Shown here in pieces: positions 26,838-32,000 of a stretch of 32,000 nt of DNA; the first letter of the stretch is position 1, and each line of letters begins with the position of its first letter. Origin of the DNA: Puniceicoccales bacterium (GTDB lineage Bacteria > Verrucomicrobiota > Verrucomicrobiia > Opitutales > JAIRLG01); contig JAITRB010000016.1 in assembly GCA_031288595.1 (NCBI GenBank), forward strand, positions 64,281 to 96,280, given 5' to 3'. The position numbers and the translations under genes are program-made. Below the pieces are notes generated by a model. The model saw nothing but the letters and a program-made list of their open reading frames with translations. It did not search any database and was not told the origin of the DNA.

Positions 26838-26966
26838 AAATTCGTATCCCCTCCTGAAATCTCTCAAAAGAGGCGATAATTGTTCTTTCCTTCAGTGGAT
26901 TTATGGCTAAAATAGGAACTTGTTTTTCCAGTTCTGAAGTAGAGAGTAGGCTGAAAAAGCCATTTC

Positions 26967-28067
26967 GTGGTGAGTCTTGGGTTTGAGAAGTTGAGGCAGA
27001 TGATAGCCTCCCGACTGCGGGAGGCGAAGGAGAGTTTTTATCTGGTCCCCTCGCAGCTCTTCTTCATAACCCATATCGATCTCCCCAAAGGGGAAAAATT
27101 GACTGAGAAGAAGATCGAGGATCTGGTCCGCTTCGCCCTGGAGAGCCAGAGTCCCTTTGAACTCAGCCATCTGCTCTGGGGATTTTTGCCCTATGCCTCG
27201 AAGGATGGGCTTTTGGCCTACGCCACCTCGAAGGAGATCCTGCGGCGCGAACATCCGGAATTTTCATCGGCGACCTATGTCTTTCCGAGCTTCCTGCCCT
27301 GTTTTCTAGGAGAGGAAAAGCTGACGGGTCTCTGTCGCTTCCGCTACGGGGAGGAGGCGGTGACATTTCGCTGCACGAAAGAAGGCTACTGGAGCGGTTT
27401 CGACAAGCTTCTAGAAAGGGAAGAGGCCTCATCGCTTCCCGTACATGAAAGGGTCCTGGAGGGGGTGAAGCTGCATCATCAGGGTTGCACTTTTTCGTTG
27501 AGTCGGGGATCTGAGAAGCCGCTAAGGTGTCTGCTTTCTTTCCGCTCGTCGGACTTTTGGTCAGCCAATCTACATGATTTCGATCTGCGGCTGAGGCGTC
27601 GCACGGAGAAGAGAGTCGAGAGTGTTTGCTATCGCACGAGCATGACAGTCTCCTGTTTCTTGGCGCTCGTATTCCTCTTTTGGATCGGTCTGGAGATCAT
27701 GACTTGGGGGATAATGCGGGAGACTCACCGGCTGGCAGCCGAGGAGCCATGGGTTGCCCGTCTGAAGCAGAAGCGGGATTTGCTTCACGAATTAGCTCTG
27801 TTTTCTAAGCAGAAACAGGTCTATTTCCGTATCTTGAGTCGTCTGAATGATAAAAGACCCGACAGCATTCTGTTTCTGCTTCTGAAAGCCAACAATGGCC
27901 GTGAGTTTGAAATCGAGGGATCGGCCAAGCGGGTAGAGGACGTCCATCGCTATGTGACGGACTTGCAGGCGGACGATATTCTCACCCTGGTGGAGCTGAG
28001 ACGGGTGACTTCGCGTAATGACGAGGTGAAGTTTTCGCTTTATGTAGAGTTTGAGGAGCGGGTGTAA
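26967..28067 (+). CDS. GspL / PilM-PilN-like bitopic assembly protein (tentative)
   Basis: 366 aa. Topology is about 225 aa cytoplasmic, one TM helix (VSCFLALVFLFWIGLEIMTWGIM), then about 110 aa periplasmic. The call rests on topology and operon position only. The start is GTG 26967 or ATG 27000. The stop overlaps the next start (TAATG at 28065-28069). Confidence 0.45.
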   Translation: MVSLGFEKLRQMIASRLREAKESFYLVPSQLFFITHIDLPKGEKLTEKKIEDLVRFALESQSPFELSHLLWGFLPYASKDGLLAYATSKEILRREHPEFSSATYVFPSFLPCFLGEEKLTGLCRFRYGEEAVTFRCTKEGYWSGFDKLLEREEASSLPVHERVLEGVKLHHQGCTFSLSRGSEKPLRCLLSFRSSDFWSANLHDFDLRLRRRTEKRVESVCYRTSMTVSCFLALVFLFWIGLEIMTWGIMRETHRLAAEEPWVARLKQKRDLLHELALFSKQKQVYFRILSRLNDKRPDSILFLLLKANNGREFEIEGSAKRVEDVHRYVTDLQADDILTLVELRRVTSRNDEVKFSLYVEFEERV

Positions 28068-28705
28068 TGGAGCAGAAATCGAAAAAGCGACGTCTCTTCG
28101 GCCTTTTGGGGCTGCGGGGACAATTGGCCTTGACGCTTGGTTTGATGATACTTTTGATCTTCCTACTTGGGGTTGCCTGGTGCAAATGGGAGAAAGTCTC
28201 TGCCTTGAAGACGAAGAACCAGGAGAAAGCTGTGATGCACGAGGAGTGGAAGGGGAAGAAGTCGGATTTGGAGGATGAGTTCCACGAGGTTGTTCAACGC
28301 GTTGTGAAGCAGGAGAAAGTGGATGAGAGGCTTCTGATGGAGAGAGTCGAAGAGGCGGCTAGGAAGACAAAGGTCCGTTATGAGGTGGAACCGCCGGTTA
28401 CAGAGAAAAATGGTATTTTTGAGAATCATAAGGCGACCGTGAGGCTGCGGAATACATCGATGGAGAGCTTAGTGGCCTTCGATGAAAATGTCGAGGGCGA
28501 TGGGGCGGCCAATGTGCGCCTCGATGAGATGGAGATCGAGGGAGGACGTGATGGGGAGTTGTCGGCCAGGGCGACAGTGAGTGCTCTGGATTTAGTCCCG
28601 GAGGATGATTGGGTGAAAGAAGTGGCTGATCTTCTTGGGGAACCGGAGCTGTTCAACAACAGCAAGAAACAGGATTTTTGTCAAACCCTGAAGTCATATG
28701 AGTAA
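28067..28705 (+). CDS. GspM / PilO-like bitopic assembly protein (tentative)
   Basis: 212 aa with a short basic N-terminus, one TM helix (LALTLGLMILLIFLLGVAWC) and a periplasmic coiled/charged domain. It overlaps the secretin start by 8 nt. The call rests on topology and context. Confidence 0.4.
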   Translation: MEQKSKKRRLFGLLGLRGQLALTLGLMILLIFLLGVAWCKWEKVSALKTKNQEKAVMHEEWKGKKSDLEDEFHEVVQRVVKQEKVDERLLMERVEEAARKTKVRYEVEPPVTEKNGIFENHKATVRLRNTSMESLVAFDENVEGDGAANVRLDEMEIEGGRDGELSARATVSALDLVPEDDWVKEVADLLGEPELFNNSKKQDFCQTLKSYE

Positions 28706-31619
28706 ATATTGGTCACGTGCTTGCCTTTTGTGTTCCGGAGGAATACTCCTCGCTCTGGGTTTAAGGGCTGCCGTTGATGACGAGGATGATCTAGATAGCT
28801 GGGAGGAAGAGGAATCTTCGGAGGAGTCGGCTCCAATGAGGCCGACTCCCGCTTTCGGTCGTCCCGCCTGGTCTCCTCCACAGTCAAAGTCGGCGAAATC
28901 TTCGCCTCCTGTCGACAAATTGATTCTCATCGATGAGGGGCTCCCCCAGGTCTTGACTATACTGGAGCAGTTGACGAATAAGACGATTCTGCGCGACCAG
29001 AAGTTGCCGGCTGTGAAGATCAATATCTGTATCCAAAACCCGATCGCTCGAGAAGAGGCGATTCTGGCTTTGGAGTCCGTCCTGAACCTCAATGGCATAG
29101 CGATCGTCGAAATGGGGAAGAATTTCCTCAAGGCCGTCACGGCGAAGCAGGCCCCCAGTCAGGCACCTAGGCTCGTGGATCAGTCGCTTTTAAGGGAAGC
29201 TCCCAGTCAGTTGATCTGTTCCAAGCTCTTCGTTTTGAGGTATCTGAATGCGCCGGCTTTCCAAAGGCTCATCATGCCTCTTTTGACCCCATCATTGGCC
29301 TCCGTCATCGTGTTTGAGTCCTCCAATGGCCTTTTTATTACGGATTGCCATTCGAATCTTCAGCGGGTGGAGGATATACTCCGGCGGGTGGATTGTCCCC
29401 TGAAAATACGGGAAACGGTTTCTTTCTATACGGCGAGAAATTCTCAGGCTTCCGCTCTCAAGGAGCGCTTGGTGGCTCTTCAGAACGGTGTTTTGAAGAA
29501 GTATCTCTACGGCTGCGTCTCCTTTGAGGCCGATGACCGGAGCAATCAGGTGATGATCGTGACACCGGCGGCGAATCTGGCCTTTGTCCGCAGCATCATC
29601 GATGGCTTGGATGTGGACCGCGATCCGCTGATTCGCACCGAGGTCTTCCGGATCCGCCATGGAGCAGCCAAGGATTTGGCCGAGGTGATTAAGAGGGTGA
29701 TCGAAAATCAGCGCCGCCAGGAGGATCGCGCCAACACCTATCGCTTGGCGCAACAGCGACTTTCTCAAGCCTCTCGAAGTTTGGCGCAGTCCTCGATTCC
29801 TGAAGGCAAAGACGCCTTGTCGAAAAAAGCCAGCGAGAATTCAGATCTTTCGGCTGGGGAGAATGGCACTCAGTCGATCCAGTTTTCCAGGGCTCTTTCC
29901 CTCGAGGCGGATGAGCGCAGTAACTCGATTTTAGCCTACGGCACTCAGTCCGACATCGCCCAGATCCGCTCCATCATCTCGAATCTCGATATTGTCCTCG
30001 ATCAGGTGCGCATCGAAGTGGTCGTAGCTCAGGTGACGTTGACCAAGAACCAGGTTTCTGGCCTAGAAACTTTCGGGATCAGCCGCGATGTGAAGGATAG
30101 TCCTGGTGCGACAAATGGTCAATGGATAGGAGTGGGTAAAGGGAGGCGTGATGTTCGTGTCATGCCGAGTAGCAAGTTGTTGAGCCTCAAGGGAAATCCC
30201 CTGCAACACTTTGCTCTGGAAGCGGTCTTTAATAAAGCTCGGGATGATCAGAATGTGAAGATTATGTCGGCTCCGACGATTGTGACGACCCATAATCGCG
30301 AGGCGATTGTTGAAGTCGGTGAATCCAGGCCCATTATTACCTCTACGGCGACGGATCTGACGAGTGCCACAAATAGGAGGAGCGAAATCGCCTACAAGAA
30401 TATAGGGCTGAAATTGAAGGTGAAGCCCTTCATCGGCAGCAATGGCGTGATTCAGATGGAGATTGATCAGGTGGTGGAGAAGAAGCTGGACGATGTGACG
30501 ATTAATGCGGAGAAACAGCCTGTTATCACCAGACGGCAGGCTACTTCCTTTGTCAGTGTGGCCAATCAGGAAGTGATCGTCATGGCGGGACTGCAGGAAA
30601 GGGAGCAGAATTTTAAGAAAGGCAAGATCTGGGGTCTTGGGGATTTGCCGATACTGGGAGACCTTCTGTTTTCCTCAAGAGATCGGAGTGAGGTGACTAC
30701 GGAAGTGATTATCTTCATCAAACCGACCATCATCGCTCAGCCACAGGATGAGCGGGAGTATCTCGAAAGGCGGGCGCGCTCTGCTGGGGTTTATGAGGAT
30801 CTAGTGCATTATGAAGGGCAGGGAGTATTTCCCAAAGGTTCGCCATTTCCCTCGACGACCATCGAGCCGGTAAATAGTTTCGATGAGCCGCCGGTTTTTG
30901 AGAAGTTCAGTCGGAGTGGAGGACATCGGGAGAAGGTTCGGAATCGGGAAAAGTCGGATTTAGCAGCGCTAAAGAGGAGGCGTCCTGGATTTAGGGGGCC
31001 ATTTTATCTCGTTCCGCATCGTTCGGGTGAGCAGGGCGGACGTGATGGGATGGATATGAATGCTGTGACGACTGCGGCTGAACCTGTGAGCAGAGGAGAA
31101 CCGAAGGTTTCCGATGTGCTTGTCCCTGCTAAAGAAAGGGCAGCCCGTGAGGCTGTTCATCCGAAGGAACTGAGGCCGATTGCTGTTCAACGGAGGAGTT
31201 TGGGAGGATCCTTTGTGGGGAAGCGTCGGGTGGAGCGCCGAAAGAGGGCTGCCTTGAAATCTCTCGAATCGGTGAGTCATCCAAAAGTCAATGAATCTTC
31301 TGAGTCGGTGAAGCCTCGAGAAATGCCCGTCTTGCGGTCTTCTGAGCCAGTAGCACGCCGGAAGGGGCTTGCCTTGAAATCTTCTAGGGCAGTGGAGCGT
31401 CGGAAGAGGGCTTTTTTGAAATCTCCCGAATCGGTGAATCATCAAAAAGTCAATAAAGCTCCTGAGTCAGTGAAGCCTCGAGAAACGCCTGTCTTGCGGT
31501 CTTCTGAGCCAGTAACACGCCGAAGGGGGCTTGCCTTGAAATCTTCTAGGGCAGTGGAGCGCCGAAAGAGGGCTGTCTTGAAATCTCTCGAATCGGTGAG
31601 TCATCAAAAAGTCAATTAA
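28698..31619 (+). CDS. gspD: Secretin (GspD/PilQ family) with long basic tandem-repeat C-terminal extension
   Basis: Signal peptide, then an acidic linker. N0-like domain ILEQLTNKTILRDQKLPAVKINI...NGIAIVEMGKNFLKAV. Canonical secretin domain NVKIMSAPTIVTTHNREA...IAYKNIGLKLKVKP...GDLPILGDLLF...EVIIFIKPTII, ending near nt 30770. About 280 further residues follow, including the 54-aa repeats. Confidence 0.9.
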   Translation: MSKYWSRACLLCSGGILLALGLRAAVDDEDDLDSWEEEESSEESAPMRPTPAFGRPAWSPPQSKSAKSSPPVDKLILIDEGLPQVLTILEQLTNKTILRDQKLPAVKINICIQNPIAREEAILALESVLNLNGIAIVEMGKNFLKAVTAKQAPSQAPRLVDQSLLREAPSQLICSKLFVLRYLNAPAFQRLIMPLLTPSLASVIVFESSNGLFITDCHSNLQRVEDILRRVDCPLKIRETVSFYTARNSQASALKERLVALQNGVLKKYLYGCVSFEADDRSNQVMIVTPAANLAFVRSIIDGLDVDRDPLIRTEVFRIRHGAAKDLAEVIKRVIENQRRQEDRANTYRLAQQRLSQASRSLAQSSIPEGKDALSKKASENSDLSAGENGTQSIQFSRALSLEADERSNSILAYGTQSDIAQIRSIISNLDIVLDQVRIEVVVAQVTLTKNQVSGLETFGISRDVKDSPGATNGQWIGVGKGRRDVRVMPSSKLLSLKGNPLQHFALEAVFNKARDDQNVKIMSAPTIVTTHNREAIVEVGESRPIITSTATDLTSATNRRSEIAYKNIGLKLKVKPFIGSNGVIQMEIDQVVEKKLDDVTINAEKQPVITRRQATSFVSVANQEVIVMAGLQEREQNFKKGKIWGLGDLPILGDLLFSSRDRSEVTTEVIIFIKPTIIAQPQDEREYLERRARSAGVYEDLVHYEGQGVFPKGSPFPSTTIEPVNSFDEPPVFEKFSRSGGHREKVRNREKSDLAALKRRRPGFRGPFYLVPHRSGEQGGRDGMDMNAVTTAAEPVSRGEPKVSDVLVPAKERAAREAVHPKELRPIAVQRRSLGGSFVGKRRVERRKRAALKSLESVSHPKVNESSESVKPREMPVLRSSEPVARRKGLALKSSRAVERRKRAFLKSPESVNHQKVNKAPESVKPRETPVLRSSEPVTRRRGLALKSSRAVERRKRAVLKSLESVSHQKVN

Positions 31620-31950
31620 TCTCCTGAGTCAGTGAAGCCACGAGAAACGCCCGTCTTGCGGTCTTCTGAGCCAGTACCACGCCGGAAGGGGCTAGACTTC
31701 AAATCTACTACGGCAGTGGAGCGTCGTAAGATGTCTTTATTTAAATCTCACGAATCGGTGAGTCATCAAAAAGTCAATGAAGCTCCTGAGTCAGTGAAGC
31801 CACGAGAAATGCCCGTCTAGCGGTCTTCTGATCAAGTAGCACGCCGGAAGGGGATTGGCTTGAAATCTTCTAGGGCAGTGGAGCGTCGTAAGAGGGCTTT
31901 TTTGAAATCTCCCGAATCGGTGAGTCATCAAAAAGTCAATAGAGTTCCTG
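31230..31950 (+). repeat. Tandem repeat, 162-bp unit (54 aa), 4 full copies plus a partial fifth
   Basis: The unit starts GTGGAGCG at 31230, 31392, 31554, 31716 and 31878, an exact 162-nt period. It encodes VERRKRAxLKSxESVSHQKVNxxPESVKPRExPVLRSSEPVxRRKGLALKSSRA. A degenerate half-unit precedes it from about 31150. Confidence 0.95.
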
Positions 31951-32000
31951 GGCGAAAACGCCGGAGTTTATCAGCTCGAAAAGCAGTGGCTCCGGTGCTT
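31620..32000 (+). other. In-frame continuation of the secretin repeat region beyond stop codons TAA (31617-31619) and TAG (31818-31820); open to the window edge
   Basis: This uses the same reading frame as 28698-31619. The repeat peptide is maintained after each stop. Each stop differs by one nucleotide from sense codons at the same repeat position (GAA/AAA/AGA versus TAA; TTG versus TAG). Confidence 0.7.

What the first reader, a model, noticed from the sequence alone, without database searches (positions are those of the whole stretch)
31150..32000. Secretin C-terminal 54-aa basic tandem repeats interrupted by two in-frame stop codons, with the frame still preserved
After the canonical secretin domain (ending near 30770) the ORF continues into an Arg/Lys/Ser-rich tail with exact 162-nt periodicity from 31230. 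The tracked ORF stops at TAA 31617-31619. The equivalent repeat position is GAA, AAA, GAA and AGA in the other units, so this is a single-base change. The same frame then continues through another full unit to TAG 31818-31820 (TTG in sibling units). It stays open again to the window edge with the repeat peptide intact and no frameshifts. TAG, TAA and TGA all end ordinary genes here at sensible lengths (rnc, lysS, rpsI), so the genetic code looks standard. Possible explanations are very recent truncation of a longer repeat tail, phase-like variation in tail length, stop-codon readthrough, or sequencing or consensus errors in a repeat array. A long, basic, probably disordered repeat tail on a secretin is itself atypical, because the usual C-terminal feature is a short pilotin-binding S-domain.
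Basis: seen in the sequence. Interest (0 to 1): 0.62.

Follow-up and report, generated by a model that had tools for sequence, protein, structure and literature searches.

The report
Secretin repeat tail, unresolved, one variant truncated
A secretion-pore gene of a tiny-genome symbiont-like bacterium carries a real, very basic 54-residue repeat tail; the two stop codons lie in a decayed block of one repeat variant, the assembly breaks inside the repeat, and a second contig holds an intact version running to the conserved protein end, so this is probably ordinary repeat variation and gene erosion, not recoding.

Summary
There is a 162-nt, indel-free tandem array from 31230, with TAA at 31617 and TAG at 31818 in the secretin frame, and the genetic code is standard.

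The window ends at a contig end inside the array. A second contig of the same genome (C15) starts inside the array and carries stop-free units. Its frame runs 32 codons past the window edge to TGA and ends in ...KSLRRRISLR, a C-terminus conserved in the genus. Synteny (secretin, small protein, GspE) shows that C15 follows C19.

Logan contigs of one public run break exactly at the points where the C19 and C15 versions diverge, and they enter the array through yet another first unit. So several array variants exist in the sampled population.

The block after the first stop (31620-31877) carries 14 private missense changes, 2 nonsense and 1 synonymous. The other units show 5:5, at a fifth of the density (p=0.02). 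The stops are therefore real mutations in a decaying block, not base errors and not a very recent event. Nothing supports readthrough or an on/off switch.

Congeners have basic tails but no array. The scan has not noted this feature on other DNA.

Interest is modest.

The parts
28698..31619 (+). GspD-type secretin ORF as assembled on contig C19 (973 aa, ends at TAA)
   Evidence: ORF list. Pfam N0 at 83-145, three Secretin_N stretches, Secretin at 516-679. TIGR02517 GspD scores 291.5 bits over residues 82-686, below the 351 cutoff. PDB GspD matches stop at about residue 688.
30726..30899 (+). Conserved post-barrel block (aa 677-734, PTIIAQPQDEREYLERRARSAGVYEDL...SFDEPPVF), the likely counterpart of an S-domain
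   Evidence: Conserved across the genus and G006 in the tail alignment. AF2 single-sequence model gives short helices at fragment residues 15-25 and 29-32 with low confidence. No sequence homology to known S-domains.
30900..31229 (+). Variable basic linker (aa 735-844)
   Evidence: Residues 691-844 have pI 10.5 and K+R 19%. Alignable only with the closest congener G002.
31230..31940 (+). Tandem array of 162-nt (54-aa) units: U1 31230-31391, U2 31392-31553, U3 31554-31715, U4 31716-31877, U5 partial 31878-31940
   Evidence: TRF and unit alignment. pI 11.7-12, K+R 27-30%, S+P 22%, aromatics 1-3%. One predicted helix per unit in an otherwise unfolded model, pLDDT 56 and pTM 0.16. No array in congeners.
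31617..31619 (+). In-frame TAA (unit 3, codon 22; GAA/AAA/AGA in sibling units)
31818..31820 (+). In-frame TAG (unit 4, codon 35; TTG in sibling units and in C15 unit b)
31620..31877 (+). Decayed block after the first stop (rest of U3 plus all of U4)
   Evidence: Unit-private changes are 14 missense, 1 further nonsense and 1 synonymous, at 6.6% per nt. The other units show 5:5 at 1.4% per nt; Fisher p=0.023. No indels.
31941..32000 (+). Start of the array exit (RVPGRKRRSLSARKAVAPVL). It continues on contig C15:341-436 to TGA at C15:437-439, ending ...KSLRRRISLR
   Evidence: The last 76 nt of C19 equal C15:265-340 exactly. C15 translation. The terminal motif is conserved in G002, G001 and G003. 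Synteny of the downstream small protein and GspE.

Best explanation
**What it is.** The gene encodes a GspD-type outer-membrane secretin of a Puniceicoccales-like bacterium with a truly reduced genome of about 0.8 Mb. After the barrel and a conserved 58-residue block, the secretins of this clade carry a long, polycationic, largely unfolded C-terminal tail that ends in a conserved basic motif (KSL-R/H-RRISLR).

**The array.** In this species, a 54-residue piece of that tail was amplified in frame into a tandem array. Each unit is one short basic helix plus a Pro/Ser-rich linker. The closest congener has a single copy of the corresponding piece.

**Why the assembly breaks.** The array differs among the near-identical genomes that were sequenced together, and that broke the assembly.
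- The variant joined to the 96-kb contig has two middle units that lost coding constraint (2 nonsense and 14 missense private changes). It would give a secretin cut at residue 973, without the conserved C-terminus.
- Another variant, at the start of contig C15, has clean units and reads through to the conserved end.

**Reading of the stops.** They are ordinary nonsense mutations in one array variant of an eroding genome. They are probably tolerated because the channel-forming parts are complete by residue ~690. They are not recoding.

**Shown versus inferred.**
- Shown: the array, the stops, the contig break, the alternative contig, the conserved end, the excess of missense changes, and the variation between assemblies.
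- Inferred: that the variants sit in different cells of one population, that the truncated protein still works, and any function of the tail. My guess is an electrostatic tether to envelope polyanions or to the polyacidic tail of the small protein encoded next.
For: - **Array and stops:**
- **Contig end:** the window end is the contig end.
- **Alternative contig:** C15 starts in the array and is 92.6% identical to the last 340 nt of C19, with the last 76 nt identical. It has no stops and its frame ends ...KSLRRRISLR*.
- **Synteny:** secretin, small protein, then GspE is conserved in G002, G003 and G006.
- **Congeners:** they end in ...HRRISLR...RRRVSAR and ...LRRKLSNH and have no array.
- **Logan contig L013:** it starts exactly one base after the last C19/C15 difference; the preceding base is G in C19 and A in C15.
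- **Logan contig L014:** it has 1 mismatch in 4.4 kb of flank but 4 in the first 57 nt of unit 1. It ends exactly where its next 31-mer becomes shared with unit 3.
- **Selection test:** the post-stop block has 14 missense: 1 synonymous private changes against 5:5 elsewhere, p=0.023, at about 5 times the density.
- **Unit shuffling excluded:** no exact repeats of 40 nt or more among C19 units.
- **Genetic code:** standard.
- **Genome:** 91% complete, 0% contamination, 784 kb; congeners are 0.8-0.9 Mb.
Against: - Coexistence of the variants rests on de Bruijn-graph break points, not on pile-ups.
- The middle of the intact variant is not assembled, so its link to the secretin body is inferred.
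- Unit 5 and the exit, which lie downstream of both stops, are not decayed (0 missense; last 76 nt identical to C15). That fits poorly with a simple model in which everything after the stop decays. It could mean gene conversion or a hidden join.
- The two contig ends do not show the 119-nt junction overlaps seen at four other contig-end pairs.
- It is not proven that the MAG and the Logan contigs come from the same run.
- The selection test rests on small numbers.
Confidence: 0.55

Rival explanations
1. Fixed truncation. The stop-bearing array on C19 is the only, or the overwhelmingly dominant, form in this organism. The secretin tail is a plain dead remnant after residue 973, and the first 264 nt of C15 come from a rare variant or a related strain.
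For: - The stops lie inside a 96-kb contig whose array path has no internal exact repeats of 40 nt or more.
- The post-stop block shows neutral-like decay.
- The genome is reduced, and gene erosion is expected in such genomes.
- A U3-type k-mer is implied in the Logan run.
Against: - C15, not C19, is the path that continues into the downstream genes.
- The Logan contig breaks at the exact C19/C15 difference next to the exit, so both junction versions had enough depth to survive graph cleaning.
- The C-terminal motif lost by truncation is conserved across the genus.
- Unit 5 and the exit are undecayed.
Confidence: 0.2
2. Assembly chimera. No genome has the stops inside its expressed secretin gene. 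The real gene runs from C19 (to about 31437) into C15, giving about 1025 aa. The block 31438-31924 belongs to another strain's pseudogene or to a decayed partial duplicate that the assembler threaded in.
For: - C15:1-101 is identical to window 31337-31437, which offers an in-frame alternative join giving exactly 1025 codons.
- The contig ends in the array.
- The divergence between the C19 and C15 array ends (9.5% over 264 nt) is far above the flank divergence of about 0.04%.
Against: - The shared stretch known so far is 101 nt, shorter than the 119-nt overlaps the assembler left at unresolved junctions.
- Unit 2 on C19 is intact and well behaved and leads straight into unit 3.
- C19's unit 5 reads into the same exit, and in the Logan graph that exit has only one continuation over 3.7 kb. 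A second genomic locus is therefore unlikely.
Confidence: 0.15
3. Programmed expression. The full tail is made from the stop-bearing allele by stop-codon readthrough or suppression. Alternatively, the array is a contingency locus whose recombination switches the tail between truncated and full length.
For: - The frame is preserved for 384 nt after the first stop with no indel.
- Unit 5 and the exit are intact.
- Several array variants coexist.
Against: - There are two different stop codons (TAA-T and TAG-C), and all three stops are used as terminators genome-wide.
- The sequence right after the first stop is not under purifying selection, at 14 missense: 1 synonymous.
- The unit length is a multiple of 3, so copy-number change cannot toggle the frame.
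- C15 units have private substitutions and are not simple excision products of the C19 array.
- No congener shows stops or an array.
Confidence: 0.05

Closest known systems
GspD secretins of type II secretion systems (e.g. PDB 5wq7, 5wq8, 5zdh; NCBIfam TIGR02517)
   Same: N0 domain, three Secretin_N stretches and the C-terminal secretin barrel domain are present. A GspE-type ATPase lies two genes downstream on C15.
   Different: The score is below the GspD equivalog cutoff (291.5 against 351.35 bits). No homology extends past residue ~688. Where solved GspDs have a ~60-residue S-domain, this protein has a conserved 58-residue block followed by 240 to 400 residues of polycationic, low-complexity tail with a tandem array.
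Pilotin-independent secretins with a flexible, dispensable C-terminus (Aeromonas hydrophila ExeD; PMC6532946)
   Same: [quoted passage not shown] This is a precedent for a tolerated C-terminal truncation.
   Different: ExeD's flexible tail is a few tens of residues, is not repetitive and is not strongly basic. Whether this secretin depends on a pilotin is unknown.
Length-variable in-frame coding tandem repeats (VNTR-type) in bacterial envelope and surface proteins, which commonly break short-read assemblies
   Same: Long in-frame units of about 90% identity, differences between near-identical genomes, and a contig break inside the array.
   Different: The array sits on the C-terminus of a secretin, which would normally face the periplasm, not on an exposed adhesin. 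One variant carries nonsense mutations.
Orthologous secretins of the same genus and of another ~0.9-Mb relative (G001, G002, G003, G006; unnamed Puniceicoccales-like genomes)
   Same: 65-74% identity in the body, the same conserved post-barrel block, basic tails of 107-244 aa, the same terminal motif (G002 ...KSLHRRISLR) and the same downstream genes.
   Different: None has the 54-aa tandem array or internal stops. G002 has one proto-unit.

Membership tests
Secretin superfamily, GspD type (T2SS) | C-terminal secretin barrel domain (PF00263) | tested here: met
   119.4 bits against cutoff 27.5, residues 516-679.
Secretin superfamily, GspD type (T2SS) | N0 domain plus repeated N1-N3 (Secretin_N) domains | tested here: met
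   PF21305 scores 30.5 bits (cutoff 27). PF03958 scores 88.9 bits over 3 stretches.
Secretin superfamily, GspD type (T2SS) | Reaches the curated GspD equivalog score (TIGR02517) | tested here: not met
   291.5 bits against cutoff 351.35. It is still the best-scoring secretin subtype, ahead of PilQ at 127.5 bits. I therefore call it GspD-like, not an equivalog.
Secretin superfamily, GspD type (T2SS) | C-terminal S-domain with a pilotin-binding helix | tested here: inconclusive
   No sequence match beyond residue ~688 to solved GspDs or to Pfam. A clade-conserved 58-residue block with weakly predicted helices sits in that position.
Secretin superfamily, GspD type (T2SS) | T2SS or T4P gene neighbourhood (assembly ATPase) | tested here: met
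   The GspE-type ATPase on C15 scores 546 bits on TIGR02533, below the 630 cutoff but the top hit. It is syntenic in congeners. The two upstream proteins gave no NCBIfam hit.
Pseudogene or decaying gene remnant (for the part after residue 973) | Premature stop relative to orthologues, with loss of a conserved end | tested here: met
   TAA at 31617. The orthologues and the C15 version run on to the conserved ...RRISLR end.
Pseudogene or decaying gene remnant (for the part after residue 973) | Relaxed constraint downstream of the stop | tested here: met
   14 missense, 1 nonsense and 1 synonymous private changes in 31620-31877, against 5:5 elsewhere (p=0.023). Unit 5 and the exit are not decayed, however.
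Pseudogene or decaying gene remnant (for the part after residue 973) | Frameshifts or indels downstream | tested here: not met
   0% indels across the array, and the frame is preserved to the contig end.
Programmed stop-codon readthrough or recoding | Downstream sequence under purifying selection, with one recoded stop type or a changed code | tested here: not met
   The spectrum after the stop is neutral-like. There are two different stops. TGA, TAG and TAA all terminate long frames.
Phase-variable contingency locus | Repeat-number change switches expression on and off (frame or promoter) | tested here: not met
   The unit is 162 nt, a multiple of 3. The alternative units on C15 carry private substitutions and are not simple excision products.
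Phase-variable contingency locus | Several repeat forms within one population | tested here: inconclusive
   Logan contig break points and a different first unit imply at least two forms.

The most novel reading that the evidence does not exclude
The secretin tail array is a true variable module in an obligate symbiont-like bacterium. Recombination among the 162-nt units would continually produce cells with different tail lengths, including tail-less (truncated) forms. This variation would tune an interaction of the secretion pore, through its polycationic tail, with the cell envelope, with the polyacidic tail of the small protein encoded next door, or with a host component.
Probability: 0.07. 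Interest if true: 0.6.

Novelty: new variant of a known kind. Interest (0 to 1): 0.3.

Why it matters
**For annotation.** The database protein (899 or 973 aa, ending at TAA) is probably only one, eroded, version of a gene whose full form ends about 50 to 160 residues later on another contig. The operon was also cut by the assembly: the ATPase that seemed to be missing lies on C15.

**For secretin biology.** A clade of reduced-genome Puniceicoccales-like bacteria carries long polycationic, unfolded C-terminal extensions with a conserved terminal motif, in the place where textbook secretins end in a short S-domain. No solved or curated family covers this. The conserved neighbour with a polyacidic tail suggests a testable charge-based partnership.

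**For the stops.** The stop codons themselves most likely tell an ordinary story of repeat instability and gene erosion in a small genome.

Tried and rejected
- **Independent assemblies of the array.** An exact scan for the repeat core found nothing in metagenome contigs or genome contigs. A protein-guided metagenome scan found one distant relative only.
- **Protein collection.** It holds only this same contig, deposited in two databases.
- **Logan contigs covering the stop-bearing units.** I tried three exact-product look-ups and all failed. No frame is open across the predicted 375-nt unitig, so this result is uninformative.
- **Domain searches of the tail.** Only a sub-threshold DUF4075 hit appeared, which I take as chance. 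NCBIfam gave nothing for the two upstream proteins or the downstream small protein.
- **Literature.** I found no paper on the source run or on basic repeat tails of secretins.
- **Structure.** AF2 without an alignment gave a low-confidence model (pLDDT 56). I use it only as weak support for "no compact fold".
- **Rejected readings.** An alternative genetic code, intra-array unit shuffling by the assembler, and a second genomic copy of the exit (Logan contig L013 runs unbranched for 3.7 kb).
Full report
**1. What is in the sequence**

- The ORF 28698..31619 encodes a 973-aa protein. It has an N0 domain, three Secretin_N stretches and a secretin barrel domain ending at residue 679.
- Tandem Repeats Finder finds a 162-nt period over 31230-31950, with 4.5 copies, 88% matches and no indels.
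- Laid in register, the units read VERRKRAFLKSPESVSHQKVNEAPESVKPRETPVLRSSEPVARRKGLALKSSRA.
- TAA 31617-31619 replaces GAA, AAA or AGA of the sibling units. TAG 31818-31820 replaces TTG. The frame otherwise stays open to base 32000.
- The code is standard. Stop-to-stop frames of 300 codons or more end in TGA 213 times, TAG 130 times and TAA 79 times.

**2.

- The window is G000:C19:64281-96280, and C19 is 96,280 b long. The window therefore stops because the contig stops, in the last unit of the array.
- The genome is 784 kb in 20 contigs, 91% complete with 0% contamination. Its three congeners are 0.8-0.9 Mb. This is a truly reduced genome.
- The nearest named database protein is from a "Puniceicoccales bacterium" MAG.

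**3. A second version of the array end**

- Contig C15 (4,146 b) begins inside a unit. It aligns with the last 340 nt of C19 at 92.6%, and the last 76 nt are identical.
- C15 has no stops. Its frame runs 32 codons beyond the window edge to TGA and ends ...RVPGRKRRSLSARKAVAPVLDEKRGQSQGFSRFSGKNSPKREKSLRRRISLR.
- After that come a 184-aa signal-peptide protein and a GspE-type ATPase. The same order is found after the secretin in G002, G003 and G006, and the small protein also follows it in G001, whose locus ends there. C15 is therefore the true downstream neighbour of C19.
- The orthologous secretins end in ...GRKSLHRRISLR (G002)...KKGLRRRVSAR (G001) and ...KKINLRRKLSNH (G003). The C15 reading thus reaches a conserved C-terminus that the 973-aa product lacks.

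**4. Are both versions real?**

I used assembly forensics instead.
- Among C19's own units, no exact stretch of 40 nt or more is shared. Four other contig-end pairs overlap by exactly 119 nt, which suggests an assembler k of about 119-120. Such an assembler could not have shuffled C19's units.
- The first 101 nt of C15 equal window 31337-31437 exactly. A join there would give an uninterrupted 1025-codon gene.
- Two Logan contigs (k=31) from one public run, SRR14710895, carry this locus.
  - **L013** starts at C15:265. That is exactly one base after the last C19/C15 difference: G precedes this 30-mer in C19 and A precedes it in C15. It then runs unbranched for 3.7 kb.
  - **L014** covers window 26851-31286. 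It has one mismatch in 4.4 kb of flank but four in the first 57 nt of unit 1. It ends exactly where its next 31-mer becomes shared with unit 3; that 30-mer occurs in the window only at 31581, where it is preceded by G and not by A.
- Contigs of a de Bruijn graph end at branch nodes. These coincidences imply three things about that run: both "last unit to exit" junctions are present, a U3-type unit is present, and a third kind of first unit is present. This is an inference and was not seen in reads.
- The exit has only one continuation, so the two junctions are best read as alleles in a mixed population, not as two loci in one genome.

**5. Nature of the stops**

I counted substitutions private to a single unit.
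- The block after the first stop (unit 3 codons 23-54 plus unit 4, nt 31620-31877) has 14 missense, 1 further nonsense and 1 synonymous change, or 6.6% per nt when the first stop is counted too.
- All other units together, including those on C15, have 5 missense and 5 synonymous, or 1.4% per nt. Fisher p=0.023.
- The stops therefore belong to a block that has been evolving without coding constraint for some time. This argues against isolated base errors and against a very recent truncation.
- It also argues against readthrough, which would keep the downstream codons under selection.
- Against a simple dead-tail model, there is no indel, and unit 5 plus the exit are clean. Gene conversion from intact variants, or an unrecognised join between variants, could explain that. 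I could not tell which.

**6. The tail itself**

- Homology to GspD models and to solved GspD structures stops at residue ~686-688.
- The alignment of the clade's post-barrel regions shows three parts:
  - a conserved block (aa 677-734, ending FDEPPVF);
  - a variable basic stretch, in which G002 has a single proto-unit (SRRAVRRKTPALKSSKPVERRSVNKRSG) where this genome has the array;
  - the conserved terminal motif.
- Tails are 107-244 aa in the genus and 211 aa in another ~0.9-Mb relative. They are only 52-71 aa in relatives with larger genomes.
- The array has pI 11.7-12, 27-30% Lys+Arg, 22% Ser+Pro and 1-3% aromatics. It matches no domain.
- A single-sequence AF2 model has no compact fold (pLDDT 56, pTM 0.16). 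It shows one helix per unit over ...SSRAVERRKRAFLKS.... This is weak evidence.
- By analogy with solved secretins, the C-terminus lies at the periplasmic side of the outer membrane (established knowledge; PMC6532946).
- I therefore propose a flexible polycationic tether. Candidate partners are envelope polyanions or the polyacidic C-terminus (...SDDESDESDWSFDEED) of the conserved small protein encoded next. This is inference only.
- A truncated tail could be tolerated. [quoted passage not shown]

**7. Verdict**

- The most likely account (0.55) is a species-specific, unstable coding tandem array in a lineage-typical basic secretin tail. One array variant, the one on the window's contig, carries an eroded block with two nonsense mutations. 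An intact variant is present in the same material.
- Rivals:
  - the truncation is fixed in the organism (0.2);
  - the stop-bearing block was threaded into the gene by the assembler (0.15);
  - programmed readthrough or switching (0.05).
- The secretin is GspD-like but below the equivalog cutoff. Its tail is a new variant of a known kind of protein.
- Interest is modest. The stops are probably ordinary erosion plus an assembly break. The polycationic tail with its conserved end and its acidic neighbour is a small, testable curiosity.
- The scan's earlier notes hold no look-alike of this tail on other DNA.

Noticed in passing
G000 contig C15:468-1022 (outside the window): A 184-aa protein with a signal peptide and a polyacidic C-terminus (...SDDESDESDWSFDEED) follows the secretin. 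It has the same position in G002, G001, G003 and G006 (66% to 25% identity) and has no Pfam or NCBIfam family. Its acidic tail is a conceivable partner for the secretin's basic tail.
   Followed up: partly
G000 contig C15:1053-2711 (outside the window): A GspE/PilB-type ATPase (TIGR02533, 546 bits) lies two genes after the secretin.
   Followed up: yes
window 28698-28922: The deposited annotation starts the secretin at a TTG, giving 899 aa. The ATG at 28698 adds 74 residues with a signal-peptide-like N-terminus (MSKYWSRACLLCSGGILLALGLRAAV) and overlaps the upstream gene by 8 nt, so it looks like the better start.
   Followed up: no
G000 contig C4:3245-3683: A second in-frame coding tandem array (150 nt x 2.9, 94% identical) sits in a Gly/Pro/His-rich protein (...GPRGCHGGHGHPGPGSRLAPPPPGSGHPGHPHGGHRGPGGQGFGGPHGP...). 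It is intact. Further arrays are at C4:12140-12399 (123 nt x 2.1) and C16:1-321 (17 nt x 18.9, at a contig start).
   Followed up: no
G000 contig ends: Four contig-end pairs overlap by exactly 119 nt: C9 5' with C11 3', C7 3' with C19 5', C6 5' with C18 5', and C1 3' with C18 3'. These are probable joins and indicate an assembler k of about 119-120. The C19 3' and C15 5' ends do not show such an overlap.
   Followed up: partly
window 28848; L013 positions 845 and 1295 (C15:1109 and C15:1559): The Logan contigs of run SRR14710895 differ from the genome at 3 single bases in about 8 kb outside the array. This indicates either slight strain heterogeneity within the sample or a slightly different source population.
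   Followed up: no
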